Below, piece after piece: positions 3,319-59,382 of a DNA stretch of 64,000 nucleotides; position 1 is the first letter of the stretch; each line of letters starts with the position of its first letter. The notes below the pieces were generated by a model that saw nothing but the letters and a program-made list of their open reading frames with translations, was not told the DNA's origin and did not search any database. The translations under genes and the position numbers were made by a program. The DNA is from Chiloscyllium plagiosum. Taxonomy: Eukaryota. Location of the stretch: contig NC_057718.1 in NCBI RefSeq assembly GCF_004010195.1, positions 77,667,145-77,731,144 on the forward strand. Reading direction: 5' to 3'.

Positions 3319-4450
3319 GAAGAGCGCCTCATCTTCTGCAACACGACGGTTGGAGGAAGAGCGCCTCATCTTCTGCAACACGACGGCTGGAGGAAGAGCG
3401 CCTCATCTTCTGCACAGTTCATCCACTTTACCAACACCTTCCACTCCGACCTCAAATTCACCTGGACCGTCTCAGACTCCGCCCTCCCCTTTCTAGACCT
3501 TTCCATTTCTATCTTGGGTGACCAAATCGACACGGACATTTACTATAAACCGACCGACTCCCACAGCTACCTAGACTACACCTCCTCCCACCCTGCCCCC
3601 TGTAAAAACGCCATCCCATATTCCCAATTCCTTCGTCTCCGCCACATCTGCTCCCAGGAGGACCAGTTCCAAAACTGTACAACCCAGATGGCTTCCCTCT
3701 TCAAGGACCGCAATTTCCTGCCTGACGTAGTTGACGATACCCTCCACCGCATCTCTTCCACTTCCCGCTCCTCCGCCCTTGAGCCCCGCCCCTCCAACCG
3801 CCACCAGGACAGAACCCCACTGGTCCTCACCTACCACCCCATCAATCTCCATGTACAGCGTATCATCCGCCGTCATTTCCGCCACCTCCAAACGCTTGGA
3901 TATTAGGAAATATGACTGGTAGTAGAAAATTTAAAAAACAATAAAATTAGATCATAAACTAACATTACACAGAGGAAGATCATTTGACCTATTGAGTCTG
4001 CATGACTCTTTCATAAAGCTTTCAGGTCCTTGGACTCCTCCATCGCCAGACCATGGCAACACGACGGTTGGAGGAAGAGCGCCTCATCTTCTGCCTGGGA
4101 ACCCTCCAACCACAAGGGATGAACTCAGATTTCTCCAGTTTCCTCATTTCCCCTCCCCCCACCTTGTCTCAGTCAAATCCCTCGAACTCAGCACCGCCTT
4201 CCTAACCAACAATCTTCTTTCTGACCTCTCCGCCCCCCACCCCACTCCGGCCTATCATCCTCACCTTAACCTCCCTCCACCTATTACAATTCCAACGCCC
4301 CTCCCCCAAGTCCCTCCTCCCTACCTTTTATCTTAGCCTGCAGGACACACTTTCCTCATTCCTGAAGAAGGGCTTATGCCCGAAACGTCAATTCTCCTGC
4401 TCCTTGGATGCTGCTTGACCTGCTGCTCTTTTCCAGCAACACATTTTCAG
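3319..4450 (+). mobile_element. Penelope-like element fragment with pseudo-LTR
   Basis: ORF 3514-3906 has YYKPTDSHSYLDYTSSHP (PLE RT C-terminal region); flanked by 16-bp duplication cacagtttaaccaaag at 3303-3318 and 4451-4466. Confidence 0.9.
4362..4390 (+). ncRNA. Minimal hammerhead ribozyme core in PLE pseudo-LTR
   Basis: CTGAAGA-a-gggc-ttat-gccc-GAAA-cgtc: CUGANGA box, 4-bp stem II, GAAA box, GUC triplet. Confidence 0.8.
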
Positions 4451-6029
4451 CACAGTTTAACCAAAGTAAAGCTCCATTATGACTCTCAAATGGATATTTC
4501 AATTAAATCATCTGGTAGGTATGTTGGGAGTAACCTTGATATACATTTAAGTTAAATTGTGCTTTATAGTTTGAATCCATATTTTCCAAATACAAAATTA
4601 CCCCCCCCCCTTACTGTCTGTTTTCAGTGTCCTTTCACATGTGCTAAATGTAATACAAACTTTCCTACCTAATTCTCAACTGACTAGAAGTAGCAATGAG
4701 AGCAATCTACAGGTGAGCAGACGTGCATCCACATGGAAATTATTCTCTGCCAGTTCATCACTGGGATCTCCAAGGCATACGGATTCATCAAAGACCTTAA
4801 TTTCCAGGCCCTAGGATACACTGAAAAGGTAGGCTAAGACTGGGATAGAATCCAGAGACAATATCTGAGGCTCAAGTTCTGGTGGAGAACACAGTAAGCT
4901 CAAGAAGGTCAAATTCCTAATCCATCAGGTCCATCACCATTAAAATATCATCAACCATATCACAGAGGTGGGGGCAGAATAGAGTAAGGCCTGCTACCTC
5001 TGGAGGTATGTTGGAGGCAGTAACAGAGGCAGATGAATGGCTAGTTGCCAAGCTACAATGTCCACTTCCATTTACTGGGACATTAGCTCACTTTCAATGA
5101 TGAATACCAAGTTCTCACTCACCTCTCACCCCTACCCTTCGTCATCCATTGTACATGCATCCATTCTCTAGCCCCTTTGTGTTCACATGTTTTGTCCATG
5201 CCCCCTCATTAGGGATTTTTTTAAGTGAAAGCTATTGATTTCTTTTTCAGTTTAAACGCTCTCTGCACATTTAAACCACATCAGATTATTGTTCTAGAGA
5301 CTCCAATTACTTCAGTCAAAACATATCAAACCTACAAGATGGCACTTTTGGAGTCAAAGAACCATATGTTTTTCTTCTGCATTTCAGTGACAACCAATAA
5401 AAAAGTTTGAGGAAGTTATTTTTTAGTTCCCCACTTGGGAATAGGAATCACCAGTGATTCCCCGCACCCAGGAATAATATCTGAGAAAGACTATCAAGGA
5501 GAAATAGGGATCTGGGCTCTGTACAAGAAAATGCGTAGCTCAAATTAGTACTAAGGACAGAAAATGAAGGACAAAAAAAAATCATGTTGAGAGGAGAAAT
5601 AAACAAAAAGGTGCTTACAAAGAGTCATCCAGGAGAGAGTTACTGACCTGTTTCTGTCCAGAGAGTTACTGATTCTGTCCAGAGAGCACAGAAATTTGAT
5701 TCCAGCGTCATTAGAATAGTTAAGACTACAGATTACTGAGTAAAAAGCAGCTGAATAGCAGACTCAGACTGTTTTGAATCTAGATGTTCCAAACCTTTGC
5801 TGCAATTGTAATTAAAGAGTGTAAATATCCAAGAGAGAGAGAAACCAGGTTCATCAGCTGATAAAAATGTGTAGGCAGGCTGAGAAACTGTCGACTAAAG
5901 AAACCACTCAGGTGCTCTAGTTACCATCCTACTGAGACTGCAGTATATCAAGGAATTGAGAAAGGCAACATAAAGCTACTCAAAGAAGAAAAAGGAGAGG
6001 CCATGAAGAAGGGCTCTCAGTATCCATTC

Positions 6030-7070
6030 AGAGTCATCAGAAAGCAATCCTCTTCATGGTAAGCTCAGCAAAGAATAGTGTGCATGTCTATAGTGTATGA
6101 AGAAGATGCACACTGAAATCTACCATCTGTTGCAGGCAGACCTCCAGTCCCCTGCAGACAAGGATGCAGTGCCAGTGGCTGTGGGAGTGACGGTGGCCAT
6201 GAACATTTTCACATCAGGTCCTTCTGCGCTGGAGGGATGATATCTCTGACAGTTCACAGTTCAATGTTCACTGTTACAAATAGGTGGAATGGAGACTTTC
6301 TCTCAAGCAAGACCCAGACATAGCAAGATACTGTCAGCATTGCCTGCTAATCTAAAATATATATCGACCCTGAGAACAATGTAGTGCTCATCACTACTGC
6401 TCTATCTGAGAGGTACTCATGACTGATGCACTGCTTGACAGAAGAGGGAAATACTTTGCACACTCTCTAAGAAAGAGATTCATCAGGATAATCACTTCTC
6501 CATGATACAAGGTGCCACTAACCGCATACAAGTTGCTCTGTGGGTGCCAAACCTAAATGCAGGGATGCACTGCAATATTAAATGGCATGTCCTTCCTAAA
6601 AATGCAATTGCTGTGTGACCATATTCACTACATAATGTTGGTCAGTTCTGTCAGCAGACTTGATGCCTTTATTCTGCACCATTTCACTATCTGAGTTCCA
6701 CAGAGGTTGGCTATTGGGCAACAAGTGAAGCTGCCAAGCTGCCTGTACCATGTGGAGTGATTGTAATGAGGTCAACCAGCTAGACTACACAGAATATGAG
6801 TTTTCTGATAGCTGCTGCTAATCTGATCTAATCAGGAAGCCCTGGCTGACATATAAAGAGGGGAGATGATGACAATCTGGCATCTGACTCTGAATGAGGC
6901 TGTCCTAATGTCAAGGACTGTTCATCTGCAAATAAAGGGTGACTTGGTGATGGATATGGCCTCTGTGGAGTTATTTCACCATGATTCCAGTGCACCTTGC
7001 AGGCAGCAAGAGCTGTGCTGACTCAGGAAATATCATCAAGCAGATCACTGGAGTTCTCAACTACAGACGT
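6030..7070 (+). mobile_element. Harbinger (HARBI1-like) DDE transposase relic, interrupted by an LTR-like insert
   Basis: Collinear degenerate motifs VPVAVGVTVAMNIFTSG (6169), FSMIQGATNRIQVALWVP (~6500), QLLCDH (~6605), DAFIL (~6662), GWLLGNK (~6705), RNIIKQITGVL-like (~7025). Confidence 0.75.
6762..6978 (+). mobile_element. Solo LTR-like element (~215 bp)
   Basis: TG...CA ends (tgtaatga / ttatttca), atataaa at 6851, aataaa at 6931; homologous to split copy at 29506-29557 plus 38741-38877. Confidence 0.7.
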
Positions 7071-9314: not shown

Positions 9315-10065
9315 GGAGAAAGTGACAGCTGCAGGTGCTGGAGATCAGATTCAAAAAGTGTGGTGCTGGAAAAGGACAACCAGTCAGACAGCATTGGAGG
9401 ATCAGGAGAATTGACGTTTCCAGCATAAGCTCTTCATCAGGAATGATTTGGAGATGCCGGTGTTGGACGGGGGTGTACAAAGTTAAAAATCACACAACAT
9501 CAGGTTATAGTCTAACAGATGAAGGAGCAGCACTCCGAACACTAGTGTGCTTCCAATTAAACCTGTTAGACTATAACCTGGTGTTGTGTAAGGTGATAGG
9601 TCAGGGAGGAGGGTGGAGCGGTGGGGAGGAAAGGAAAATGGACAGGTAGGACAGTTAAAGAGGGCGGTGCTGAGTTGGACGGTTAGATCTGGGAGAAGGT
9701 CAGGGAAGGGGAGACCAGGAAACTGGTGAAATTGACATTGATCCCGTGTGGTTGGAGTGTCCCAAGGAAGATGATGAGGTGTTCTTCCTGTGGGGGTTGG
9801 GTGGCTACAATTTGGCGGTGGAAGAGGCCCAGGACTTGCATGTCCTTGACGGAGTGGGAGGGGGAGTGGAAGTGTTCAGCCACAGGTGGTGGGGTTGTTT
9901 AGTGCGTGTGACCCAGATATGTTCTCTGAAATATTCCACAAGTTGGCGTTCTGTCTGTACAATGTAGAGGAGACCACATGGAGAGCAACAGACACAGTAG
10001 ATGACGGGTGTGGGGGTGCAAGAAAACCTCTGCCGGATGTGGAAGGATCCTTTGGGATACCAGTT
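9315..10065 (-). mobile_element. Penelope-like element 3' part with a second PLE-type pseudo-LTR nested at ~9445-9590
   Basis: Reverse complement matches the PLE at 18090-18700; flanked by ttcctggt(a/t)tacaa at 9301-9314 and 10066-10079. Confidence 0.85.
9411..9440 (-). ncRNA. Minimal hammerhead core
   Basis: Minus strand CTGATGA-ag-agc-ttat-gct-g-GAAA-cgtc; stem II weakened. Confidence 0.6.
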
Positions 10066-10202: not shown

Positions 10203-10461
10203 CAAAAACAGAAGTTGCTGGAAAAGCTCAGCAGATCTGGCAGCATCTGTGAAGAGAAATCACAGTTTATGATTTGGGTCCAGTAACCCTTCCTCAGAAC
10301 TCAACTTCCCTAGGACTCAACTTCCCAATTCTGAGCAAGGTCACTGGACCCCAAACGTTAGCTCTGATTGCTCTTCACAGATGCTGCTAGAGCTGCTGAA
10401 TTTTTCCAGCAACTTCTGTTTTTGATTTACAGCGTCCACAGTTCTTTTGGTTTTTATTTAA
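10203..10461. mobile_element. Palindromic PLE pseudo-LTR-derived short element
   Basis: About 95-bp inverted arms (caaaaacagaagttgctggaaaa... / ...tttttccagcaacttctgtttttg); flanking duplication caattaaaggaa at 10191-10202 and 10462-10473. Confidence 0.75.
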
Positions 10462-15929: not shown

Positions 15930-18785
15930 TGAATGCACTGCTTCTGCTTCCCCCCCCACCCGACCCCATGGTATGCATCACTTCCATTGGTGACGTCAGC
16001 CACGAACCCATAACCACACCCACTCCAGAGACAGTCTCTGTCCCCACTTCCAACTCCAGCCCCACACCAGGTCCTAGACCCCAGCCCTGCTGGTTTTTTA
16101 CCAGCCCCTCACCACTGCACTCCCCTACCCCCTCTCAGACCCACCCCTCACTGAGAATGAACGATCAATCCTTAGTAAAGGTCTCACCTTCATCCCACTA
16201 CGCCCCCAGATCAGCAAATTCAACGCGAGTCGTGACATCAAATTTTTCTTCCGCCATCTCCGCCTCGGTGCTGACTTTTTCCAACAGGACTCCCATCCAC
16301 CCTTCGAGGACCCCTTCTCCCACCTCCAGTATACTCCATCCACTTGGACACCCCATGCTAGTCTGTTACCCGCCCTCGACCTCTTCATCTCCAATTGCTA
16401 CTGTGACATTGACCACCTCAACCTGTCTACCCCTCTCACCCACTCCAACCTCTCACCCTCACAACACGCAGCCCTCCACTCCCTCTGCTCCAACTCTAAC
16501 CTCACCATTAAACCAGTGGACGGGGGTGGAGTGCAGAGGCAGTTTGGCACACAGACCTCTACACTGCTGAAGCCAGGTGCCAACTCGCGGCCACCTCCTC
16601 CCTACTGCCCTCTTGACCATGACCTCACCTCCCATCACCAAACTATCATCTCCCAGATCATACACAACTTCATCACATCAGGGGATCTCCCTTCCACAGC
16701 CTCCAACCTCATAGTACGGGAAGCCCGCACCACCCAGTTCTACGCCTTACCCAAAATTCACAAACCTGACTGTTCCATCATCTCCACCTGCTCCAGTCCC
16801 ACCGAATTTACCTCCTCATACCCATGACACTGTCTTTCACCCTGGGTCCAGGATTTCCCCACATACATTTGGAACACCACGCACTCCCTCCACCTCTTCC
16901 ATCAATTTCAGTGTGCCGGCTCCCAATGCCTCATCTTCATCATAGACGTCCATTCCCTATACGCATCCATCTACCATGATGAAGGTCGAAGGTCTCCAAG
17001 CCCTCCATTTCTTCCTCTCCTGCCGACCCAACCAGAACCCTTCCACCGACACACTCATTCGATTGGCTGAACTGATGCTCACCCTCAACAATTTCTCCTT
17101 TGAATCCTCCCACTTCCTTCAGATCAAAGGAATAGCCATAGGCACCCTGCCTCTTCGTCGGGTACGTGGAACAGTCCATCATCCGCAGCTACACCAGCAC
17201 CATTCCCCACCCTTTCCTCCTTGACATCATCCTCTGCCATTTCTGCCACCTACAGTCAGACCCCACCACCAGATAGTTCCCTCCCCTCCCTTTTCAGCAT
17301 TCCACAGAGACCATTCCCTCTGCAATTCCCTTGTTAGGTCCATGCCCCTCACCAACCCACCCACCACTCCCACCATCCTCCCTTGCTGCCACAAGAGGTG
17401 TAAAACCTGTGCCACCTAGTGCTCTCACGAGAAGGTTGAACAATTCATCAACTTCACGAATACCTTCCACCTGGACTATCTCGGATCTCCCTCCTCTTCC
17501 TGGACCTCTCCATCTCCATTTTCGGTGACCAACTCAACATTTCATTCCCTCAGCTACCTGGATGACACCTCCTCCCACTCCTCCCACCCCATAAAAAAAG
17601 CTATCCCTTACTTCCAATTCATCCGCCTCCGCTGCATCTGCTCCCCGGAGGACCAATTCCACTTCAGATCATCCCAGATGGCCTCCTTCTTCAAGGACTG
17701 CAATTTCCCCTCCCATGTGGTCAACAATGCCCTCCAGTGCATCTCCTCCACTTCCCACACCTCTGCCCTCAAACCCCAGCCCTCTAACCCCACCCCTCTA
17801 ACCACAACAATGACAGAACATCCCAGCCCTCACCTTCCACCCCACCAACCTCCACATACATCACATCATCCTCCGCCATTTCTGCCACCAACAGTCAGAC
17901 CCCACCACCAGAGGTATATTTCCCTCCCCACCCTTTTCAGCATTCCACAGAGACCATTCCCTCTGCAATACCCTTGTTGGGTCCATGCCCCCCACCAACC
18001 CACCCTCCACTCCCACCACCCTCCCTTGCTGCCACAACAGGTGCAAAATCTGCACCCACACCTCCCCCCCTCACCTCCATCCAAGGCCCCAAAGGATCCT
18101 TCCACATCCGGCAGAGATTTTCCTGCACATCCAAAAACGTCATCTACTGCATCCGTTGCTCTCGATGTCATCTCCTCTACATTGGGGAGACAGGATGCCA
18201 ACTTGCGAAACGTTTCAGAGAACGTCTCTGGGACACATGTTCCAATCAACCCATTGCCCTGAGCACTTCAACTCCCCCTTCCACTCTGCCAAGGGCATGC
18301 AAGTACTGGGCCTCCTCCACCGCCAAATCCTGGCCACCCGATGCCTAGAGGAAGAACACCTCATCTTCCATGTGGGCCCCTCCAACCATATGGGATCAAT
18401 GTTGATTTCACCAGTTTCTTCATCTCCCCTCCCTCCCATCTTATCCCAGATCCAACCCTCCAATTCGGCACTACCCTCCTGAATTGTCCTACTTGTCCAT
18501 TTTCATCCCCACCCATCTGCTCTACCCTCCACTCCAACCTAAGACCATCAACTCCCCCATCTTCATCTACCTATCAAATTCCTAGCTACCTTCATCTCAG
18601 CCCCACCCCCTTTCCATTTCTCTCTCAGCCCCCTCATTCCCGATGAAGGGTTTATGCCCAAATCGTTAATTCATTGCTTCTCGGATGCTGCCTGACCTGC
18701 TGTGCTTTTCCAGCATCACACTCTCCACTCTGCTCCTCAGGTGCTGCGTGGCCAGCTGTGCTTTGTGAGTGCCATTCTTTTTGAC
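15930..18785 (+). mobile_element. Long degenerate Penelope-like element (probably Neptune type): RT, Cys linker, GIY-YIG
   Basis: FYALPKIHKP, LTLNNFSF, CHNRCKIC linker, NVIYCIRCSRCHLLYIGETG; decayed hammerhead core at ~18641-18668. Confidence 0.92.
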
Positions 18786-22175: not shown

Positions 22176-22486
22176 CTCCCTCACCACTCAATGCCTGGAG
22201 GAAGAATGCCTCATCTTCCGCCTTGGAACACTTCAACCCCAGGACATCAATGTGGACTTCAACAGTTTCCTCATTTCCCCTTCCCCCACCTCACCCTAGT
22301 TCCAAACTTCCAGCTCAGCACTGTCCCCATGACTTGTCCTACCCATGTAATGTCTATCTTCTTTTCTACCTATCCACTCCATCCTCCCCCCTCCCCCACT
22401 CACCTATTGTACTCTATGCTACTTTCTCCCCACCCCCACCCTCCTCTAGCTTATCTCTCCACGCTTCAGGCTCTCTGCCTGTATTC

Positions 22487-22514
22487 CTGATGAAGGGCTT
22501 TTGCCCGAAATGTC
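22487..22514 (+). ncRNA. Minimal hammerhead core
   Basis: CTGATGA-a-gggc-tttt-gccc-GAAA-tgtc. Confidence 0.75.
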
Positions 22515-22911
22515 GATTTTGCTGCTGCTCGGATGCTGCTGGAAGAGCACCACTAATCCAGAAATTGTAGAGTCCAGTCAGACCACATGGAGGACCTTAT
22601 AGAAAGAATGTAATGTCTATCTTTTTTGCTGTATTTCTTATCCTATATTATGTATATCTATATTGTACCTATATTATGTACATCTGTAATATAGTGTAAG
22701 TGTTTTTCTTTAGTTTCTCTTTTTTCATGCCTAAGATTTGTATCTTAGCTACCTTGTACCTAAGATAGTACTGTGTATTGGCAACATTGTACACTTTTCA
22801 CTGTATTCCTGTTTTTTTTTGTACCTTGAGTACTTGTAACAATAAACCTAATTCTAGTTCTAACAAAACTGCTAGTTTATTCCAGGAAGAAGATTCACAC
22901 TGTGGTTTGGG

Positions 22912-29398: not shown

Positions 29399-29505
29399 AG
29401 AACAGACACAAGGATGTGATGAGGCTGGTAGTTTGCTACTGCCATCTTATTGGATGATGGGCTGAGGACATAGGAGGCCAAAGAACATGCAGGGACTGGG
29501 ATAAT

Positions 29506-29557
29506 TGAAATGAGGTCAGCCAGGTGGATCTCACAGAATATGATTTCCCTGATTGGG
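29506..29557 (+). mobile_element. 5' part of LTR-like element (target of the Tx1 cluster)
   Basis: tgaaatgaggtcagccaggtggatctcacagaatatgatttccctgat aligns with 6762-6810. Confidence 0.8.
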
Positions 29558-29572
29558 AACTATATAGAAGTG

Positions 29573-29799
29573 TACGTTAGGGCCCGGGTGTCCATGAAGA
29601 AGGAGCATGCGGTGTCCACCAACACCCTGGGTTGTTCAGGGAGAGTGGGCGCCGCAGGGAGTGGAGTGCATCATTTCTCCCTCCAACTCTATTTTGATTT
29701 AGTCCCTACCCTCCCCTTCACTGTTTTGATCACACAGCACTGCCCTTTGATGTGAAGGGCAGTGTTTGTCACTGGCCACTTGGGTGTTGGCCTATCTTC
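29573..29799 (+). mobile_element. Tx1 3' fragment (copy 1: ORF2 end plus partial 3' UTR)
   Basis: YVRARVSMKKEHAVSTNTL; aligns with 36169-36399. Confidence 0.92.
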
Positions 29800-30504
29800 A
29801 GAGTTGGATCTGTGTGTGTACATATGTGCAAGGACTCTCCTCCTTGAAGGGGACTGTCCCTGGACTAGCTGCCCTGCATCGAGAGAGAGGAAGGAAAGAA
29901 GAAGGAAGAAGAGGAGGAGGCAAAAGCAGAAGGAGGTAAGAACTTTTGTGTCTGGGGCCTACGTTTGGAGCTGCAGCCTGGGCCTCACTCAGGTCAAGGG
30001 AGTGTTGCTGCTGACCTGGGGGCCCACTCCCACTGCTGGTCTCTGGGACCCCGCCCGGACCTGCCTCAACTGTTGCTGCTTGGGGCCCACCTCCACTGCT
30101 ACTGCCTGGGACTCAATTTTGGGGCTGCCTGGGACTTGCCTTGGACACCCTCCCCAACAGGTCTGCCCCCCACCGCTGCTGCAACCAAGGGCCTGCCTAG
30201 GACTTGCCAGAGGCCTGCCTCCACTGCTGCTGTTGCCTGAGGCCTGCCTCCACCACCACTGCCTGGGACTTGCCTTGGGGCCCCTCCCCACAGCCTCCAC
30301 CACTACTGCTGCCTGGGACTTGCCTTGGGGACCCTCCCCAACAGGCCTGCCCCCACCGCTGCAACCAAGGGAATTGCCTAGGACTTGCCAGAGGCCTGCC
30401 TCCACTGCTGCTGCTTGGGCCCCTCCCCACAACCTCCTCCACTGCTGACACCAGGGGCCCACCTCCACCGCTGCTGCCTGGGGCACAACAATATCCAGAA
30501 GAGT

Positions 30505-32750
30505 ATGGCGAGCCCGAAGGTCGAGGGGCCCAGCCGCACCTTCGCCGGGGTAGCCGCTGCCTTAGGCTCGGCTGTCCCAACCCCGGCTGCAACGTTGACT
30601 CCCTTCAGACACCTAACCAAACGCCTGGGGGTAAAGGCCTATCCCCACCCCAATATGACCATCAAGGCCTGCAGCAAGGCCATGGCTAGTGTGGTCGGCC
30701 CACTGGCCATCGTCGCTGCGGCCCGGATGTACGGGAAGGCCGTCTTTTTCCTTAAGACCGAGCAGGCGGTCCACCTGGCCGTGGAGAGGGGGCTCACTGT
30801 GGGCGGGACACAGTTGCCCGTCGACCCTCTGGAGATTACAGCCCAGAGGGTCGTGATCTCTAATGTCCCGCCCTTCATTGCCAACGAGCTCCTTCTCCCC
30901 CACCTCACCACCTTGGGGGAGGTCCGGTCAGGTGTGCAATCGCTCCTGCTCGGTCTTAAGGACCCCGCCCTCTGACACATCTACTCCTTCTGACGCCAGG
31001 TGTTCATTTGCCTGGCTCGGGAGGAGGTCACCGAGGGCTCATTCACCCTCCTCCATGAGGGCACGGCCTACCATGCCTTCTGGTCAGCAGACAGCCTGCG
31101 GTGCCACCTGTGCCGCGAGGTGGGGCACATAAGAAAAAACTGCCCCACCCAGAAGGCTGCCCAGCCCACGCCGATGGCTGGTGGTGGTGCCGCCGCACCC
31201 ACTCCCCCTCCCCCGAAGTCAACACCACAGGCCCCGGCACCGAAGGCTAAGCCAGGGGCTTGCAATGCTCCAGCCTCTGGCAGGGAGAGGGGTGAGCATC
31301 CGGCTGGCCAGAAGGCGCTGAAGAAGACGCGGCGCGTCAAGCCAGTCCACGTGGAGACCATCCTATCCCCTTCACCGGAACCTAGCCCACAACCTGCCCC
31401 GCCCAGGCACGATAATGCCCCTGCGGCCGTGCCAGCGTCGCCCCGGCACGGGAACCCTGACCCCCAAACCCGTACCTGATCCTAACCCCACTGACCCCAC
31501 ATCCACCCCCCACCCCAATGGAGAAACCCCTCGGGCTTCAACGCCTGCCCCTGGCGCCGTGACACCTGGCCCGGGGGCCCCTGAGCCCAAATCCCGCCAC
31601 ACCCTGGCACTAACCTGGGGGGAACCACCGCTGCCCTACCTCCTGCAGCGACCGTGTCTCTGGGCCCCGGAGGGGGAACTGGGCCCCTGCCCCTACCCTC
31701 GCCCTCGCCCTCACCTGATAAACCAGGGGCAGGGCAGGAAGTGACACAGCTGACCCTCCCCACCCTGGCCACGCCCCCTGTCTTCCCCCAGCCAATCGAA
31801 TTCTGGGAAAGGCTGGGGGGGGGGGGGGAATCCTCGGGCCCCATGACCACCAAGGCGGGCGGGGAGGGGAAGGCCCATAAATTCCCCCGGTCTCTCTAGG
31901 GAAGAGGCACCAGCCCTTGGAGAAGAGAGACATTCCAGCAGCGCGCCGGTGGCGCTGCCCCTCTCCAGGGGACGAGCCAACAGTGCCTCTCGACTGTCCC
32001 GCACTGTGGCCCGACCTACCTGAACCCCCAGGGCTACAGCAGGGCCTTCTGCTGCCTCAACTCCTCCGGCCCCTGGGGAGGACTTTAACAACCATATGGG
32101 CCACGATGTGGGCGACGACGGAGGACCCTCTGTTGGGTTGTCGAGCGGTGGAGAGGAGGAGGGTGTTATCCTCGCTCCTCCCTCCCAGACTGTTTTTCCG
32201 TGGGCCTTGGCCCTGGGGGAGGACCTTTTGCCTGAGGAGCTGGGCATCCCGGTGTCGGGAGAGGAGCGGGGCCCCGAGCCTCTGCCGCCCGACGACCCGA
32301 ACTTGGGACGCACCGAGGAAGGTACCGCCGGTGACCCTGGGGGTGGGGTCGCCGGGGGTTTGAGGCCCGTTGGTGGCGTCGGACCAGACCCCATCCTCTC
32401 GGTGGGGGAGGGGTCGGTGACCGAGGGCGACCTCCCGGAGGAGGGTTCGGGATTGGTGGCGGACACCGGGGACGAAGTAGACTCTTTCTGCAGCGACATT
32501 TGAGTCCCAGGTGTCCCCCACCGATCTCCCCCTCATCCCCCTCGAGGAACTCCAGGAATTTGTCGAGGAAACTTGGAGTCGCCGGGATAGAGCCCAACTG
32601 GCGCTCGACCGCTGGAGCTCCTTCGAGAGAGTTTACTGGTCGGCCCACGCTGCTCGCCAGGCGCCTGGGCTCAATGTAAATGAGCGAAAGCGATTCAGGA
32701 ACTTCCTGGGGGCACTCCTGGTGAGGGCGAGGGACTTCTGTGCCCCTCCC
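30505..32750 (+). pseudogene. Tx1 ORF1, disrupted
   Basis: AAARMYGKAVFFL, VVISNVPPFI, CHLCREVGHIRKNC zinc knuckle, Pro-rich linker, C-terminal IPLEELQEF...ALDRW; TGA stops at 30973 and 30991 plus frameshifts. Confidence 0.9.
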
Positions 32751-32755
32751 TCGTC

Positions 32756-35700
32756 CTCAACATCAACGGCAGCAGGGAGTCACAGCGCAGATTCCAGACC
32801 CTCTCAGTCCTCCGGGACGGGAGGTATGCGGTGTGCTTCCTGCAAGAAACCCACACTACCCCGGGAGACGAAGCCACCTGACTCCTGGCGTGGCGAGGGG
32901 GGGGTCTACGTGAGTCACCTCACCCGCAGATCTGGCGGGGTGGCTATCCTGGTGGCCCCACATTTTCAGCCAGAGATCTTGGGGGTCAGGGAGCCTGTGC
33001 CAGACTGTTTGCTTCACCTGACGGTTCGGCTGGGGAGCGCGGTGCTTCACTTGGTGAACGTCTACGCTCCCCTGGCCAGGCTGAGGCAAACGAGCTTCTT
33101 TGAAGAAGTGTCCTCTCATCTCGCTTCCATCGACGAGAACCAGTGCGTCGTCCTCGGGGGAGATTTTAACTGTGTCCTCGAGGGCAGGGACCACGGCGGT
33201 GCCCACACTGGTTGGGCGTCGGAGAGGAGGTTGTGGGACTTGGTCAAGTCCTTCGAACTGGTGGACATCTGGCGGAATCTCCATCCCGACTCCATCGCCT
33301 TCACCTTCGTGAAGCCTGGGGTCGGCGAGTCTAGAATTGACTGCCTGTACGTTGCGCGGGCGTACGCCTCCTGTTTTCCGAAGGCCTCCACGCGGCAGGT
33401 GTCGTGCACGGACCATCACCTGGAGTGGGCGGAACTCCTTCCGTTCGGCGCCAGGCTCTGCTCCGCGTACTGGCACTTTAACAACCTGCTGCTGGAGGAC
33501 GGGCAGTTCCGGGACTCGTTTCGTCGTTTCTGGGCCGGCTGGAGAAGGAAGCGGGGAAGCTTCTCCTCCCTGAGGCTATGGTGGGATGTGGGCAAGGCTC
33601 ACGTCCGTGTCTTCTGTCAGGAGTACGCGAGGGGGTCGATGAGGCGGAAATCCAGGATCCAGGAGTTGGAGAGGGAGATGCTCGACCTGGAGTCACACCT
33701 CGATCAGCCCGACGCGGACCCGGCCCTGCGCGGGGCGTACGAAGAGAAGAAGGCTGCGCTCCGGGACCTGCAGCTCGTCGGGGCTCGGGGCGCGTACGTG
33801 AGGTCGCGGATCCAGCTCCTCCAGGACCTGGACCGCGGCTCCCCCTCCTACTCGCTGGAAAAAAGGTGTGGCACCCGTCAGCAGCTCCTTGTGCTGCTGG
33901 CCGACAAAGGGAGCCTCCGGATCCGAAACGAGGGAATCAGGGCCCATGTCCGAAACTATTACACGTCTCTGTTCTCTCCGGATCCGTCCAGCGAGGATGC
34001 TCGCAGAGTTCTGTGGGAGGACCTGCCGCAGCTCAGCCCGGAGGACGCCGGAAGGCTCGACGCTCCCGTCACCTTAGAGGAGCTGACCGGCGCTCGAGGG
34101 GCAAAACCCCGGGGCTGGACGGGCTGACTGTGGAGTTCTTCAGGGCATTCTGGGTTGTCTTCTCGCCTGGCCTCCGTGCTGGCCCACATGATCCACCCGG
34201 ACCAGTCCTACACGGTCCCGGGCCGGAGGATACACGATAACGTCCACCTGGTCCGGGACCTGATCCATTTCTGTCGATGGGCTGGTCTGCCGAGCGCCTT
34301 CCTGTCTCTCGACCAGGAGAAGGCGTTCGACAGGGTCGATCACGAGTACCTGCTCGGGACTCTGCGGGCATTCGGGTTCGGGGCGCGGTTCGTCGCCCGG
34401 ATCCGACTTTTGTACGCTGCCGCAGAGTGTCTGGTTAAAGTTAGCGGGTCCCTGACGGCGCCCCTTCGCTTCGGGAGAGGAGTGCGTCAAGGCTGCCCCC
34501 TGTCCGGCCAGCTGTATTCCCTGTGCATGGAGCCTTTCTTGCGGAGGAGGTTGTCGGGGCTGGTTCTGCGCGGCGCGGGCACGGGGGTGGTCCTCTCGGC
34601 CTACGCCGATGACGTGCTCCTCACTTTCACCGACCCGGCTGACCTGGGGAGGGTGCGCGAGTGCCAGGCCGTGTACTCGGCAGCGTCTTCTGCCAGGATC
34701 AACTGGGCCAAATATTCCAGACTACTGGTCGGTCTGTGGCGGGTGGACTCTCTGCCGGAGGAGTTACGGGGGTTCAGCTGGGGTACCACCCATCTCCTCT
34801 ACCTGGGGGTCTACCTCAGCCCGGCTGAGGAATCCTGGCCGGCCAACTGGCAGGAGCTGGAGGCCAAAGTTTCGGCTCGCCTAGGCCGCTGGACAGGGCT
34901 GCTCCGAGTGCTATCTTACAGGAGTCGGGTGCTGGTCATAAACCAGCTGGTGGCCGCCATGCTGTGGTACCGGCTGGTCACTTTGGTCCCTCCTCTTGGC
35001 TTTGTCGCTGGCATCCAGAGAACGTTGGTCGATTTCTTCTGGGACAAAAAGATGCACTGGGTCGCCGCGCAGGCTCTGAGTCTCCCTATTGAGGTGGGCG
35101 GTCAGTCGCTGGTGTGCGTCCGCACCCAGGTCGCGGCGTTCCGCCTTCAGACCTTGCGGCGATACCTTTACGTCGAGCCTCCTCCTAGGTGGTGCGCCCT
35201 GGTGACGTATTTTTTCCGCCAGGTGCGTAACCTCAACTACGACACGCAGCTCCTGTTCGTCGACCGTGACGGTTTGGAGGTCGCCCTCAAGACGCTGCCT
35301 GTCTTTTACCAGGACCTGATCACTGTCTGGCACATGGTCGAATCGCGTCGCGCCTACCCTCTGGCTGGAGTAGCGGCTGTCGTCAGGGAGCTGTTGCTCA
35401 GGAATCCGCACCTCCGTACTCGCGGGTTCGAGTGGCTGTCGGAGGGGAGGGCCGTGGCGGCGAGGGTGACCAGGGTCGGGGACGTGCTGGGTGCCGGGGG
35501 CCTGGGCTGGACGCTACCGCAGGACGTAGCGAGCAGGGCAGTGGTAGACGTCCAGTACGTGGCCACCGCCATCCGACGCCTTAAAACGGTGGTGCTCGGA
35601 CCTGACATTGTGCACCAGTTGGAGGACGCTCAGGTGTGCAGTGGGATCCCGTCCGCGCTCACCCCAGCCCGGTCGGAATTTCACATTGGCCCCAAGGTCC

Positions 35701-36300
35701 CGTACTTCCCGCGGGAGCCTGTACCCCTCAACCTGAGCCATCTCCGGAATTTTAATTTTGATCCCTTCCAGGGGGTAAAAAGGAGGGCCCTGTATAGACT
35801 GCTGCTGCACACCGTCCACCTCTTCTTCTCCCTCATCCACCGTCCCCTGCAACCGCAGATTGCCATGGTTCAGACTCCCAGCCCAACTGCTTGTTCTGTG
35901 GCGCTGTGGAGTCCGTGGACCACGTATATATTGGGTGTGGGCATTTGCACTCCCTTTTTGATTTTCTCAAAAACCACCTCCTCTGTTTTTGGTTGCACTT
36001 CAGTCCCACGCTCCTGATCTTCGGGCACCCGGTACGGAGGAGGGAGGGCAGGTCTGAAGACCTCCTCGTGGGTCTGCTCCTGGGCCTGGCCAAACTGGCC
36101 ATCAACAGGTTGAGGCAGCGGGCCGTGGAGGGGGTCGTTAGGGCCGACTGCCTGCCCCTCTTCCGCGGTTACGTTAGAGCCCGGGTGTCCTTGGAGAAGG
36201 GGCACGCGGTGTCCACCAACACCCTGGAGTTGTTCAGGGAGAGGTGGGCGCCGCAGGGAATGGAGTGCATTATTTCCCCCTCCAACTCTATTTTGATTTT
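32756..36300 (+). pseudogene. Tx1 ORF2 (AP endonuclease, RT, C-terminal Cys motif), disrupted
   Basis: LNING, LQETH, NVYAP, GDFN, SRID, TDHH, DQEKAFDRVDH, GVRQGCPLSG, YADD, C..CGAVESVDH; stop at 32879 and deletions near 34155 and 35843. Confidence 0.93.
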
Positions 36301-36496
36301 AGTCCCTACCCTCCCTTTCACTGTTTTGATCACACAGCACTGCCCTTTGATGTGAAGGGCACTGCTTGTCACTGGCCACTCGCGTGTTTTCCTGTCTTCC
36401 TGGTGGTGGAAATTGAATAAAGATTTGTTCACTTTGTGTCTTTCACTGTGTCTCACACCTGCACACACACACCATGGGTGCTGGGGAAAAATAAGC

Positions 36497-36519
36497 ACTA
36501 CCGCACTTAGGCGGTAGTG
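36497..36519 (+). other. Tx1 3'-terminal stem-loop
   Basis: cactaccgc-acttag-gcggtagtg perfect 9-bp stem just before the A tail; recurs at ~37520, ~38087, ~38376 and degenerate at ~38568. Confidence 0.75.
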
Positions 36520-36529
36520 TAAAAAACAA

Positions 36530-37350
36530 TAGACTGCTCTGCACACCGTCCACCTCTTCTCTGTCATCCATCGTCCGGACACGCCTTGGCATGCCCATTT
36601 GCCACGGGGTGGTGGGGATCCCCAGTGGAGGGCTCTCTACGCGGGAGTCCTTCCCCTTTCTCTCGGGGATCTGGGGTGGAGGGTGCTGCACGCAGCAGTC
36701 CCCTGCAACCGCAGATTGCGGTGGTTCACGGACTCCCAGCTCAACTTCTTGTTCTGTGGCGCTGTGGAGTCCGTGGACCATGTATATATTGGGTGTGGGC
36801 ATTTGCACTCCCTTTTTGATTTTCTCAAAAACCTCCTCCTCTGCTTTTGGTTGCACTTCAGTCCCACGCTCCTGATCTTCGGGCACCCGGTACGGAGGAG
36901 GGAGGGCAGGTCTGAAGACCTCCTTGTGGGTCTGCTCCTGGGCCTGGTCAAACTGGCCATCAACAGGTTGAGGCAGTGGGCCGTGGAGGGGGTCGTTAGG
37001 GCCGACTGCCTGCCCCCCTTCCGCGGTTACGTTAGGGCCCGGGTGTCCTTGGAGAAGGAGCATGCGGTGTCAACCAACACCCTGGAGCTGTTCAGGGAGA
37101 GGTGGGCGCCGCAGGGAGTGGAGTGCATCATTTCTCCCTCCAACTCTATTTTGATTTAATCCCTGCCCTCCCCTTCACTGTTTAATCACACAGCATTGTC
37201 CTTTTGTGAAGAGCACTGCTTGTCACTGGCCACTCGGGTGATTTCCTATCTTCCTGGAGGTGGAAATTGAATAAGGATTCATGCGCCTTGTGTCTCTCAC
37301 TGTGTCTCACACCTGCACACGCACACCACGGGTAGAAAAAAAAAATTTAT
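36530..37350 (+). mobile_element. 5'-truncated Tx1 (copy 3)
   Basis: ORF 36599-37159 repeats the ORF2 C-terminus, including the segment deleted in copy 2; A-rich tail. Confidence 0.95.
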
Positions 37351-37361
37351 AAATAAATAGA

Positions 37362-38600
37362 AGTGTTTTGATGTGAAGGGCACTGCTTGGCACTGGCCGC
37401 TCTGGTGTTTCCTTTATTTTCCTGGTGGTGGAAATTGAATAAAGATTTGTGCACCTTGTGTCCCTCACTGTGTCTCACACCTGCACACACACACCATGGG
37501 TGCTGGGGGAAAAAATAAGCACTACTGCAGTTAGGCGGTAGTGTGGGGGTTTATAATAATTAAAAAAAGGAAAAAATAAACAGGAGTGTCAGAGGTTCTG
37601 TTCACTCTGAGAACTGGCTCTGAGGGAGCTGGATCAGTGTGAAGTACTACACAAGTGTAACATCCAAGGAGCAGGAGAATCGATGTTTCGGGCATGAGCC
37701 CTTCTTCAGGAAGCTCCTTGGATGCTGCCTGACCTGCTGCGCTTTTCCAGCAACACATTTTCAGCTCTGATCTCCAGCATCTGTAGTCCTCGCTTTCTCT
37801 GACACATGTGTACATAAAGGGGGACCTGGTGACAGGATACTGGCCTCTGTGGAATTACTAAAAAAAAGAAAAAAGAAACTGGGGTGTCAGCGGTTCTGTT
37901 TACTCTGAGAGGTAGCTCTGAGGAAACCGGATCAGTGTCATAAAAAAAATAGATGTGTCCCTCTGATGTCCCTCTGCACTGCTTGTCCTGGGGGTGGAAA
38001 TTTTGAATAAAGATTTGTGCACCTTGTGTCTCTCACCGAGTCTCACACCTGCACACACACACCATGGGTGCTGGGGAAAAAATAAGCACTACCGCAGTTA
38101 GGTGGTAGTGTGGGGTAAAAAAACACAGGGGTTCTGCTCACTCTAAGGAAAAAAATACACAGGAAATAAATAAGTAAATAAATAAAAGTGTTCCCCTTCA
38201 CTTTTTTGATCACACAGCATCGCCCTTTGGTGTGAAGGGCACTGCTTGTCACTGGCCACTCGAGTGTTTCTTTGCTTCCTGGTGGTGGAAACCGAATAAA
38301 GATTTGTGCACCTTGCGTCTTTTACTGTGTCTCACACCTGCACACACACAACATGGGTGCTGGGGAAAAAATATGCACTACCGCAGTTAGGCGGTAGTGT
38401 GGGGGTGAAAAAAACTAAACAGGAGTGTCCCCCTTCACTGTTTGATCACTCAGCATTGCCCTCTAAGAAGGGCACTGCTTGTCACTGGCCACTTGGGGGT
38501 TTCCTTTCTTCCTGGTGGTGTGCAGGTGTGAGACACACACATCATGGGTGCTGGGGACGATAAGAGCGTTACCGTAGTTAGGCGGTAAGTGTCGGGGTTT
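37362..38600 (+). mobile_element. Four further Tx1 3' UTR copies interleaved with LTR fragments
   Basis: UTR motifs (gggcactgcttg / gaataaagatttg / tgtgtctcacacctgcacac / 3' hairpin) at ~37362, ~37975, ~38187, ~38428. Confidence 0.9.
37661..37800. mobile_element. PLE pseudo-LTR fragment with minus-strand hammerhead core (37682-37709)
   Basis: Minus strand CTGAAGA-a-gggc-tcat-gccc-GAAA-catc; flanked by acaca(a/t)gtgta. Confidence 0.8.
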
Positions 38601-38740
38601 TGTAAAATCAGCAGAGTCTGATTTTTCTCTCAAAGAGCTGGCTCAGAGGGAGCTGGATCAGTGTGAGTGAAGGACTCTGCTCTTTTTTCCCAGTATTAAA
38701 GAGGAGAGGAGACTGATTCTGTTGGTGTCAGCCCCAAGAA

Positions 38741-38877
38741 AATATAAACAGGAGTGTCAGGGGTTCTGTTCACTCTAGGAGCTGGCTCTGTGCTAGCTGG
38801 GTCAGTGTCATATGCTATGCATCTGTAAATAAAGGGCAATTTAAAGACAGCATACCGGTCTTTGGGAAGTTATTTCA
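38741..38877 (+). mobile_element. 3' part of LTR-like element, starting at the TATA box
   Basis: atataaacaggagtgtcag...catctgtaaataaaggg...gttatttca aligns with 6851-6978, best at the 3' end. Confidence 0.8.
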
Positions 38878-39182
38878 GGGACATTGTGAAAATACAGCTT
38901 GTATGATAACAGTCATTCAGCAATTGCAATCAAATGTGTTGAGAATTTGCACTGTCTAGTTTCTCAGGAAAGGAGAAGAGAATTGGAAGTGACATATAAA
39001 TAAGGTAAGTTAAGGCTTTAATGAAACACATGAAAATAAGGTAACTGCCATTCAATGGTATGAAATTCGGAAATTGCCATTTGAGGCTTGAAGGGAAACT
39101 CTGAAAAAAAATTTTCTCAATATTGAGGATCTGATTTTTTTCATTCTCACTGTACTTTCCCACCTTCCTACCCATTGATCTA

Positions 39183-39959: not shown

Positions 39960-40920
39960 CAGCTGCAACAGGACATTAATAAACTACCAAAATGGGCAGA
40001 CAATTTGCAGGTTGAATTTAATTCAGAGAAGTGAAATGTGATGCGTTTTGGCAAAAGGAATAGGAAGAAGCAATATATTCTAAACTGCGTGCAGGAATAG
40101 AGGGTTCTGGAGTGTACATTTGTCCTGATCTTTGACAGGAGGAGGAGGAATTGAGAGAGTGGGTAGCAAAATATATGGCATCCTGGACTTCATAAATAGG
40201 CATATTAAATACAAAAGATTTGGAATTATGCTAAACACTTGTGAGTCTCTGGTTAGGCCTAAACAAGAGTGCTGTTCCCCCATATTGTCACTACACTTTA
40301 GAAAAAATGCCAGTATCCTTGAAAAGATGCAGAGAAGATTTACGAGAATGATTCTACAGACCAGATCTTTTAGTTACCGATTATGTTAGAAAGGCAAGAG
40401 TTGTTTTCCTTGGAGCATTAAGGAAGAATTTTATGGAGGTGTACAGAGTCTGATAAGCTTCAATAAGCTGGAGAAGGAAAACCTCTTCCCGTTGGTTGAT
40501 GGTACAAGATCAAGAGGATGCATATTTCAGAATTTGGTAAGAGATGCAGGGAATTGATTGGAAGATATGTTTTACACAATGAATGGTAATATGCTGGAAC
40601 TTTTGGTTCACGAAGGGATGGAAGTGGAGGTAAAAGAGGTAAAGAGGTTCCTGATGAAGGGTTTTTGCCTGAAACGTCGATTTCGAAGCTCCTTGGATGC
40701 TGCCTGAACTGCTGTGCTCTTCCAGCACCACTAATCCAGAATATGGAAGTGAAGGTAATCAATGATTTCAAAAAGAAATTGGACTGCCACTTGAAGAAAA
40801 CAAATTTGCAGGGTTAGAGGAATTGAGTGAGTGAAAAAGGTGAACTGGAGTGCTTCACAGGGAGCCAACATGTGTTTGATGAGTCAAATACCCTCTTTCA
40901 GGGCCATGGATCACTCTGTG
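39960..40920 (+). mobile_element. Old CR1 3' fragment
   Basis: LVRPKQECC...LEKMQRRFTRMI in ORF 40132-40389. Confidence 0.8.
40634..40742 (+). mobile_element. 109-bp PLE pseudo-LTR insert with hammerhead core (40651-40678)
   Basis: CTGATGA-a-gggt-tttt-gcct-GAAA-cgtc; flanking duplication atggaagtg(g/a)aggtaa at 40618-40633 and 40743-40758. Confidence 0.85.
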
Positions 40921-59189: not shown

Positions 59190-59382
59190 AGCTCAGTCGG
59201 TCTGGCAGCATCTGTGAAGAGAGATCAAAGTTAACGTTTTCGGTTCAGTTCTGAGGAAGGGTCACCGGACTTCAAACATTAACTCTGATTTCTCTTCACA
59301 GATGCTGCCAGACCTGCTGAGCTTTTCCAGCAACTGCTGTTTTTGTTTCTGATTTATAGCACCCACAGTTCTTTCAGATTTT
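59190..59382. mobile_element. Palindromic PLE-derived short element
   Basis: ggtctggcagcatctgtgaagag / ctcttcacagatgctgccagacc inverted arms; decayed ctgagga core at 59251. Confidence 0.75.

What the first reader, a model, noticed from the sequence alone, without database searches (positions are those of the whole stretch)
37575..38740. Divergent LTR 3' halves carried behind Tx1 tails (3' transduction of the target)
Seen: LTR downstream sequence recurs at ~37575-37858, ~37878-37940, ~38126-38148, ~38417-38429 and ~38625-38680. The pieces differ from each other and from the resident 38741 copy, and several end in A runs. The longest extends past the poly(A)-signal position (cataaa) and is then followed by aaaaaaagaaaaa. 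Inference: Tx1 transcripts read into the host LTR at other loci, sometimes used its poly(A) signal, and delivered a fresh target site with each insertion. That would make the array self-seeding.
Basis: partly seen in the sequence, partly recalled or inferred. Interest (0 to 1): 0.7.

Follow-up and report, generated by a model that had tools for sequence, protein, structure and literature searches.

The report
LINE carries its own target along
A jumping gene that keeps landing at one spot in another repeat has also brought in pieces of that repeat from elsewhere in the genome, most likely as read-through RNA; this joins two well-known transposon habits and is not shown to drive the pile-up.

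Summary
The pieces are real but of three kinds. A solo LTR (29497-38877, GGGAC on both sides) is split at its TATA box by seven Tx1-clade units (RT region 51% identical to Xenopus Tx1L). Three pieces (37577-37859, 37875-37941, 38604-38682) are not copies of the local LTR half: the two longest differ from it by 24% against 8% between neighbouring Tx1 tails, and they lack most of its private changes. They follow Tx1 tails, begin upstream of the LTR's likely transcription start and end in A-runs. The two longest lie between two copies of a locally mutated 13-nt target, which fits partnered 3' transduction, probably in two rounds. One short-read contig confirms 37830-38022. Piece 38416-38429 is only the target-site duplication; 38126-38148 is undecided. 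'Self-seeding by imported targets' is not supported: 0 of 3 imported targets was hit, and ordinary target duplication explains the array. No source locus or read-through molecule was shown, because no genome is held. L1 transduction, LTR-preferring Tx1 and TSD-built tandem arrays are all published. The scan noted this Tx1-LTR targeting at many other loci of this genome; none of the listed note summaries mentions transduction of the target.

The parts
29497..29573 (+). 5' half of the resident solo LTR, ending in the first target copy (29561-29573, variant type); left flanking repeat GGGAC at 29492-29496
   Evidence: 44 of 57 letters match the intact copy at 6753-6809; flanking repeat
29574..29799 (+). 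Tx1 unit A, cut at both ends
   Evidence: 92% to 36170-36399
29800..36520 (+). Tx1 unit B, near full length, ORFs broken; zinc knuckle, APE endonuclease, reverse transcriptase
   Evidence: Pfam RVT_1 E 6e-24; zf-CCHC and Exo_endo_phos weak, below cut-off; 51% identity over 90% of the RT-region ORF to Xenopus Tx1L ORF2, E 4e-168
36529..37335 (+). Tx1 unit C, 5'-truncated; 5' junction ambiguous (shared ATAGA)
   Evidence: 93% to B over 640 nt; junction
37354..37366 (+). Local target copy, variant type; shares 17 nt (1 mismatch) with the copy ending at 38191
37367..37550 (+). Tx1 unit D (3' UTR only), followed by an A-rich tail to 37576
37577..37859 (+). Piece 1: imported LTR 3' half from the target 13-mer to about 3 nt short of the LTR end; A-run 37860-37874
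   Evidence: 25 of 105 letters differ from the resident; in the last 54 columns 11 side with the 6.8-kb copy against the resident, 2 side with the resident
37661..37799 (.). Multi-copy repeat inserted in piece 1, two inverted parts, flanked by a 12-nt repeat (10 of 12 alike); Penelope-like with a hammerhead-type core on the minus strand (label recalled)
   Evidence: 11 other matches in the window; contigs skip it (joints 37640 to 37808/37814); flanks; hairpin seen; no Rfam match
37875..37941 (+). Piece 2: imported LTR piece, diverged target 13-mer plus 54 nt; A-run 37942-37949
   Evidence: 12 of 51 letters differ from the resident, 8 of 51 from piece 1; bridged by one contig
37946..37958 (+). 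Local target copy, variant type; closes the D + piece 1 + piece 2 block
   Evidence: 12 nt shared with 37354-37366 allowing 1 mismatch
37959..38116 (+). Tx1 unit E, 5'-truncated
38126..38148 (+). Piece 3: 23 nt of LTR without an intact target 13-mer; A-run 38149-38155; origin undecided
   Evidence: 20 of 23 to the resident, 19 to piece 1, 18 to piece 2
38179..38191 (+). Local target copy, variant type
38192..38407 (+). Tx1 unit F, 5'-truncated; variant target on its left, unmutated target on its right
38416..38429 (+).
   Evidence: 14 of 14
38430..38598 (+). Tx1 unit G, 5'-truncated, internally deleted, the most diverged unit
38604..38682 (+). Piece 5: diverged LTR-like piece with a degenerate target
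   Evidence: 46 matches, 16 mismatches, 4 gaps to the resident, 0 of 1000 shuffles; sides with pieces 1 and 2 at 4 of 5 resident-private columns
38683..38735 (+). Unassigned 53 nt behind piece 5, repeated elsewhere in the genome; short A-run 38736-38742
   Evidence: no significant match to either LTR copy; 8 (X1) and 12 (X9) contigs show another letter at 38692
38743..38877 (+). Resident LTR 3' half: TATAAA 38743, target 13-mer 38745-38757, initiator-like TCACTCT with A at 38772, AATAAA 38828, ends CA; right flanking repeat GGGAC 38878-38882
   Evidence: contig 38784-38987 with 1 difference; promoter labels are inferred from consensus
6753..6978 (+). Second, unsplit solo LTR of the same family, used as outside reference; CCATG on both sides

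Best explanation
A Tx1-clade LINE cuts at one 13-nt site starting inside the TATA box of this LTR family and duplicates the site at each insertion, so units stack head to tail (stacking and duplications shown; the enzyme's specificity inferred). Because source copies sit in other LTRs of the family, their transcripts sometimes run past the LINE's weak 3' end into the host LTR and are polyadenylated there. Reverse transcription then copies the A-tail, the foreign LTR piece and a short Tx1 tail before stopping: a partnered 3' transduction (inferred). Here D + piece 1 + piece 2 most likely arrived as one RNA between two copies of the locally mutated target. Its internal A-run records an earlier RNA-mediated step at an intermediate locus. 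G + piece 5 arrived likewise between two unmutated target copies. The imported targets are passengers; the array grew on its own duplicated site.
For: (1) Divergence: piece 1 vs resident 25 of 105 and piece 2 12 of 51, against 38 of 487 for unit D vs B, E, F (Fisher p 1e-5 and 1e-3). Without CpG sites p is 4e-7 and 7e-4, and 0.003 for piece 1 even against the most diverged unit G. These p values treat pooled pairwise columns as independent. (2) At 5 columns where pieces 1 and 2 agree against the resident, piece 5 sides with them at 4. In the 3' segment piece 1 sides with the distant 6.8-kb copy at 11 columns and with the resident at 2. (3) Two target lineages: the copies before units A, D, E and F all carry T at column 5 and A at column 8 (4 of 4); those of piece 1, piece 2, G and the resident carry C and G (4 of 4). 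B has no target copy and C's junction is ambiguous; both were left out of this count. Pieces 1 and 2 thus lie inside a local duplication yet carry the other target type. (4) Pieces 1 and 2 contain the 14 nt between the target and the initiator-like A, 29 nt after TATAAA, which an LTR-started RNA would lack (inference from consensus spacing). (5) Source-type loci exist: an X1 joint links a Tx1 tail directly to LTR (38121 to 38739, depth 92.8) and an X9 contig runs 37521-37620 with 16 differences. (6) In RNA run X21 (5095 of 12,955,460 reads laid) Tx1 tails and LTR pieces are read in the sense direction: 345 vs 5.7 at 37462-37522, 57 vs 8.8 at 37584-37644, 20 vs 0 at 38743-38803 (strand read from the tool's stated convention). 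(7) Tx1 3' ends vary (C ends about 45 nt before B; D, E, F, G end a few nt after B), as expected for a weak end signal.
Against: No source locus was identified (no genome held; collection scans empty). No read spanning Tx1 tail into LTR is listed; the joint table shows 15 rows with 926 hidden, and run X22 laid 0 reads. Sense LTR reads could come from LTR promoters or introns. Piece 1's A-run is 41 nt after a non-canonical hexamer, piece 2 has no hexamer before its A-run, and piece 5's A-run is weak. Piece 3 is marginally closest to the resident. The target geometry cannot separate co-insertion with D from later stand-alone insertions that joined by homology at the 13-mer.
Confidence: 0.55

Rival explanations
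1. Stand-alone (orphan) insertions: Tx1 proteins reverse-transcribed RNAs ending in LTR sequence (Tx1 read-through, LTR-retrotransposon 3' ends or host RNA) at the local target, and each cDNA joined by pairing at the shared 13-mer. The pieces would then have arrived separately from D and G.
For: Each piece begins exactly at the target motif and ends in an A-run. Orphan transductions are a standard class for L1 (PMC13009371).
Against: Both pieces 1 and 2 would need the incoming target type to replace the local variant on the left copy. Piece 2 does not end at the LTR's hexamer.
Confidence: 0.22
2. DNA-level exchange (ectopic gene conversion or unequal crossover) between this array and another Tx1-LTR array imported the segments.
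For: Tx1 tails are about 90% alike (296 differences in 2918 pooled columns) and such arrays are many in this genome (earlier notes; unchecked). This would also give foreign LTR pieces behind tails.
Against: An A-run replacing the LTR end in piece 1 still needs an RNA step somewhere. The right border of the D to piece 2 block is a 12-nt local target copy with no long homology. The junction contig has single-copy depth (18.6 vs 20.6-21 for flank contigs), so no near-identical donor is evident.
Confidence: 0.13
3. Local DNA duplication: long target duplications or slippage copied the resident LTR half.
For: True for 38416-38429 (14 of 14) and possible for piece 3 (20 of 23). Piece 2 ends at a second AGTGTC motif and shares CATA with the resident.
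Against: Pieces 1, 2 and 5 lack the resident's private changes and are three to four times more diverged from it than the Tx1 tails are from each other.
Confidence: 0.06
4. Misassembly that stitched reads from several arrays together.
For: The region is repetitive; no listed contig spans the whole stretch, and the junctions around pieces 3 and 5 and D/piece 1 are not bridged in the 16 pieces shown (154,764 hidden).
Against: X1 contig of 193 nt covers 37830-38022 with 1 difference and no gap at single-copy depth (X1 may be the assembly's own sample, but the contig is independent of the assembler). Matching flanking repeats 9.4 kb apart and the ordered target lineages are unlikely from a chimera.
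Confidence: 0.04

Closest known systems
L1 3' transduction, partnered, orphan and multigenerational (PMC13009371; passages and section 10 read)
   Same: Flanking DNA copied behind a 5'-truncated LINE tail, ending in an A-run, inside one target duplication; two stacked tags from two rounds; ends that do not always follow a strong signal.
   Different: Tx1 clade instead of L1; the flank is the element's own target repeat, so the cargo includes another copy of the insertion site; no source element identified here.
Tx1-8_Crp and Tx1-4_AMi, crocodilian Tx1 families preferring LTR retrotransposons; Tx1-Mar with SINEU-3 (PMC4494074; passages read; supplements not opened)
   Same: Tx1-clade LINE preferring another transposon; tandem insertions sandwiching a TSD, explained by sequential insertion.
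   Different: The passages read describe no 3' transduction of target sequence (the one use of 'transduction' concerns 5' extensions). Which LTRs and sites they hit may be in supplementary figures S3-S4, which I did not see.
Tx1L of Xenopus laevis in Tx1D (Christensen et al. 2000, seen only as cited in PMC4494074; protein P0005)
   Same: Closest named protein: 51% identity over 90% of the RT-region ORF; targets another mobile element.
   Different: Its target is a non-autonomous piggyBac DNA transposon, not an LTR.
R1 and other tandem arrays formed by double insertion (McGurk and Barbash, bioRxiv 10.1101/158386; passages read)
   Same: An element with a preferred site and a TSD keeps its target and makes a new one, giving head-to-tail arrays with differing 5' truncations.
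   Different: Those junctions hold only the TSD; here three junctions also hold longer foreign target pieces.
R2Ol read-through RNA with downstream 28S target sequence (PMC6795142; passages read)
   Same: A site-specific LINE RNA that carries downstream target sequence.
   Different: There the target sequence is reported to aid integration by annealing; here it was copied into the genome with an A-run. Any guiding role here is untested.

Membership tests
Tx1 clade LINE | ORF2 with APE endonuclease and RT, closest to Tx1L | tested here: met
   RVT_1 E 6e-24, Exo_endo_phos weak; best full-length named hit Tx1L ORF2, 51% over 90%; no tree built
Tx1 clade LINE | ORF1 with CCHC zinc knuckle | tested here: inconclusive
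   zf-CCHC 20.2 bits, just under the 20.8 cut-off, at 30994-31476; frame broken
Target-specific Tx1 | Repeated insertion at one site of a multicopy target with TSD | tested here: met
   5 of 7 units start right after a copy of the 13-mer; B has none, C is ambiguous; contig joints show the same junctions at other loci
Target-specific Tx1 | More than 20% of family copies flanked by the target (criterion in PMC4494074) | not testable with these tools
   no genome held
Solo LTR | TG..CA ends and a short flanking repeat | tested here: met
   two copies, each with its own 5-bp repeat at aligned ends
Gypsy LTR | Linked internal region with Gypsy-type gag-pol | not tested
   both copies in the window are solo; the Gypsy label comes only from earlier notes
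Partnered 3' transduction | Extra sequence lies between the LINE tail and a second A-run | tested here: met
   pieces 1, 2, 3 clearly; piece 5 with a weak A-run
Partnered 3' transduction | One TSD pair encloses LINE plus extra sequence | tested here: met
   variant target copies at 37354 and 37946 enclose D + pieces 1 and 2; identical copies at 38416 and 38745 enclose G + piece 5. Separate orphan insertions could give the same picture.
Partnered 3' transduction | Extra sequence is foreign to the insertion locus | tested here: met
   met for pieces 1, 2, 5; undecided for piece 3; not met for piece 4
Partnered 3' transduction | Extra sequence matches the 3' flank of an identifiable source element | not testable with these tools
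   no genome; scans empty; contig letters mostly hidden
Partnered 3' transduction | Poly(A) signal 10-30 nt before the second A-run | tested here: not met
   41 nt after CATAAA for piece 1; none for piece 2. Exceptions are reported for L1 too, so this lowers the 'uses the LTR signal' claim more than the transduction claim.
Partnered 3' transduction | Read-through RNA observed | tested here: inconclusive
   sense reads on both sides of the junction in X21, no spanning molecule listed; X22 no test
Penelope-like element (insert in piece 1) | Minimal hammerhead ribozyme core | tested here: inconclusive
   core-like motif with a 4-bp stem on the minus strand (motif recalled; minimal hammerheads in PLEs per PMC6155905); Rfam no match

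The most novel reading that the evidence does not exclude
This Tx1 family routinely exports its own landing site. A-tail plus TAAA at a 3' junction can form AATAAA (seen at 37575) and the LTR offers a second signal, so read-through RNAs end inside the target. When such an RNA lands anywhere, it plants a working target that later copies reuse, and the carried target sequence may also guide integration by pairing, as reported for R2Ol. The LINE would then multiply its own niche independently of the LTR retrotransposon.
Probability: 0.15. Interest if true: 0.6.

Novelty: new variant of a known kind. Interest (0 to 1): 0.3.

Why it matters
If the reading holds, imported LTR pieces are lineage tags: each can be traced to a source Tx1 copy, giving source-to-offspring chains for a site-specific LINE, as is done for human L1. 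It also warns annotators that LTR 3' halves next to Tx1 tails are not separate LTR insertions. The larger claim, that a site-specific LINE spreads its own target, would be of real interest for how such elements outlast a dying host family, but this locus gives no example of reuse. My searches for such a report (open-licence library only, listings read) found none for Tx1.

Tried and rejected
Exact-motif scans for the Tx1 tail and the LTR in viral and metagenome collections: 0 hits in 4 scans. Run search: no RNA holder listed as such; four runs were laid; X22 laid 0 of 8,328,510 reads and is no test. Rfam on 37300-39000: 2 matches at E 0.26 and 0.82, both far below gathering score, treated as chance. 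ESM Atlas gave RVT_1/zf-RVT clusters with no clade name. Tested whether 38683-38736 is a forward or inverted LTR piece: not significant (27 to 955 of 1000 shuffles). One search had an offset error for piece 1, corrected; only figures are used for it. Dating units by private changes (F 6, E 4, B 3, D 2 in 121 columns) fits the order F, E, D inferred from target copies but is too weak to count. Earlier-findings look-ups by sequence returned nothing. Rejected: piece 4 as a transduced fragment; local duplication for pieces 1, 2, 5; LTR-promoter transcripts as the sole template; imported targets as the driver of this array.

Full report
Setting. The window looks like a shark or ray genome (my recall of its repeats and earlier notes; not tested by a call). 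No genome is held, so the work rests on the window, one lay of public contigs and reads, one protein search and papers.

The LTR is real. A copy at 6753-6978 runs TG..CA with CCATG on both sides. Its first 57 nt align to 29497-29553 (44 matches) and its end to the resident half ending at 38877. GGGAC lies at 29492-29496 and 38878-38882. So one solo LTR has been pushed 9.2 kb apart. Its class was not tested; 'Gypsy' comes from earlier notes only.

The insert is a Tx1 array. Seven head-to-tail units, A to G, share the same 3' end. Unit B (about 29800-36520) carries RT (E 6e-24) and weak endonuclease and zinc-knuckle matches; the RT-region ORF is 51% identical over 90% to Xenopus Tx1L ORF2. Five of seven units begin right after a copy of the 13-mer that starts inside the LTR's TATAAA; B has no such copy and C's junction is ambiguous.

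The five pieces. All are more like the resident half than chance (0 of 1000 shuffles; piece 4 is 14 of 14). Piece 4 is just the target duplication. Piece 3 (23 nt) matches the resident at 20, piece 1 at 19 and piece 2 at 18 positions: undecided. Pieces 1, 2 and 5 are foreign. Piece 1 differs from the resident at 25 of 105 and piece 2 at 12 of 51 positions, while unit D differs from B, E and F at 38 of 487 (Fisher p 1e-5 and 1e-3). Leaving out CpG sites strengthens this, and piece 1 still exceeds the most diverged unit G (p 0.003); pooled pairwise columns are not independent, so the p values are guides only. At 5 columns where pieces 1 and 2 agree against the resident, piece 5 agrees with them at 4. 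In the last 54 columns piece 1 sides with the far 6.8-kb copy 11 times and with the resident twice. Piece 1 also holds a 139-nt multi-copy insert that family contigs skip; it looks Penelope-like (recalled; no Rfam match). Whether it came with the piece or later is unknown.

Target lineages give the geometry. The copies before A, D, E and F share two changes (4 of 4); those of piece 1, piece 2, G and the resident do not (4 of 4). The copies ending at 37366 and 38191 share 17 nt with one mismatch. The simplest history (inferred): F inserted early; its left target copy mutated; later units inserted at that variant and duplicated it; G inserted at the unmutated right copy. D, piece 1 and piece 2 then sit inside one pair of variant copies although pieces 1 and 2 begin with the other type. 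They also include the 14 nt between the target and the initiator-like A that lies 29 nt after TATAAA, which neither a TSD nor an LTR-started RNA would supply. That is the pattern of partnered 3' transduction as defined for L1 (PMC13009371, passages), and the internal A-run matches the two-generation case in that paper (section 10). The geometry does not exclude separate orphan insertions joined by pairing at the 13-mer, which is the main rival.

Poly(A) signal. Piece 1 has CATAAA where both other copies have AATAAA, and its A-run starts 41 nt later, about 3 nt short of the LTR end. Piece 2 has no hexamer before its A-run. Piece 5 is followed by 53 unassigned nt and AAGAAAA.

Reads. Four of 24 listed runs were laid on 37340-39150 at 85% likeness. 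One X1 contig covers 37830-38022 with 1 difference at depth 18.6, like the flank contigs (21 and 20.6), so the piece 1/A-run/piece 2/A-run/E junctions are real and single-copy. Other junctions are not bridged in the 16 pieces shown (154,764 hidden). Joints 38121 to 38739 and 38756 to 38002 (depth 92.8) and an X9 contig over 37521-37620 show Tx1-LTR junctions at other loci. RNA run X21 laid 5095 of 12,955,460 reads, sense-biased on Tx1 tails (345 vs 5.7) and on LTR pieces (57 vs 8.8; 20 vs 0). Depth is 78 at 37552, 65 at 37560 and 56 sense at 37613, which is compatible with read-through but does not show it; no spanning molecule is listed. X22 laid 0 reads.

Self-seeding. None of the three imported target copies (37577, 37875, 38604) is followed by a Tx1 unit, though the one at 37577 is identical to the resident's. 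Power is low because D may be the latest arrival. An element with a preferred site and a TSD preserves its target anyway (bioRxiv 10.1101/158386, passages), and tandem SINEU-3 copies sandwiching a TSD are described for the Tx1-Mar system (PMC4494074, passages). The array needs no imported sites.

Comparison and novelty. Tx1 families preferring LTR retrotransposons are published (Tx1-8_Crp, Tx1-4_AMi; supplements unseen and may bear on the site). Earlier notes record this targeting at many loci of this genome (unchecked); the one note returned for 'transduction' in this genome concerns a Penelope element. I found no report of a Tx1 element carrying its own target as 3' cargo (listings of an open-licence library). 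It is, however, what two known behaviours predict together. Verdict: observation partly confirmed; transduction likely (0.55 partnered, about 0.75 for any RNA-borne import); self-seeding unsupported; new variant of a known kind; interest 0.3.

Noticed in passing
window 29800-29845: The 45 nt just before unit B's leader resemble the LTR and piece 5 (30 matches, 6 mismatches, 9 gaps; 2 of 1000 shuffles). Either an LTR-derived head of this Tx1 family or the remnant of another imported piece behind unit A.
   Followed up: partly
window 38867-39150 (X9 record 16): An organism B contig fits the right flank with 8 differences in 284 nt, but its first 38 letters do not fit the LTR end. The match begins where the 11 letters left of the left flanking repeat would also fit (6 of 11), so B may lack the LTR here; the letters are not shown, and this sits oddly with the divergence inside the array.
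   Followed up: partly
window 29554-29560 vs 6810-6853: The resident's 5' half is about 37 nt shorter than the 6.8-kb copy just upstream of the TATA box.
   Followed up: no
window 37575-37580: A Tx1 A-tail followed by the target's TAAA forms AATAAA at the 3' junction, a possible ready-made poly(A) signal for read-through RNA.
   Followed up: no
window 38156-38178: A partial target-like TACACAGG and a TAAA-type repeat lie between piece 3's A-run and the next target copy; possibly one more very short insertion.
   Followed up: no
window 36510-36520, 38105-38112, 38748-38757: The Tx1 3' terminus ends in GGTAGTGT, like the target's GGAGTGT, which could allow RNA-target pairing.
   Followed up: no
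window 4359-4451, 9316-9443, 10214-10413, 18676-18735, 22484-22535, 40641-40731, 59301-59334: Further fragments of the repeat inserted in piece 1, several as inverted pairs; heavily represented in RNA run X21 in both directions.
   Followed up: partly
window 47515-about 52900 and 19610-about 21200: Long tandem arrays with 23-nt and 28-nt periods.
   Followed up: no
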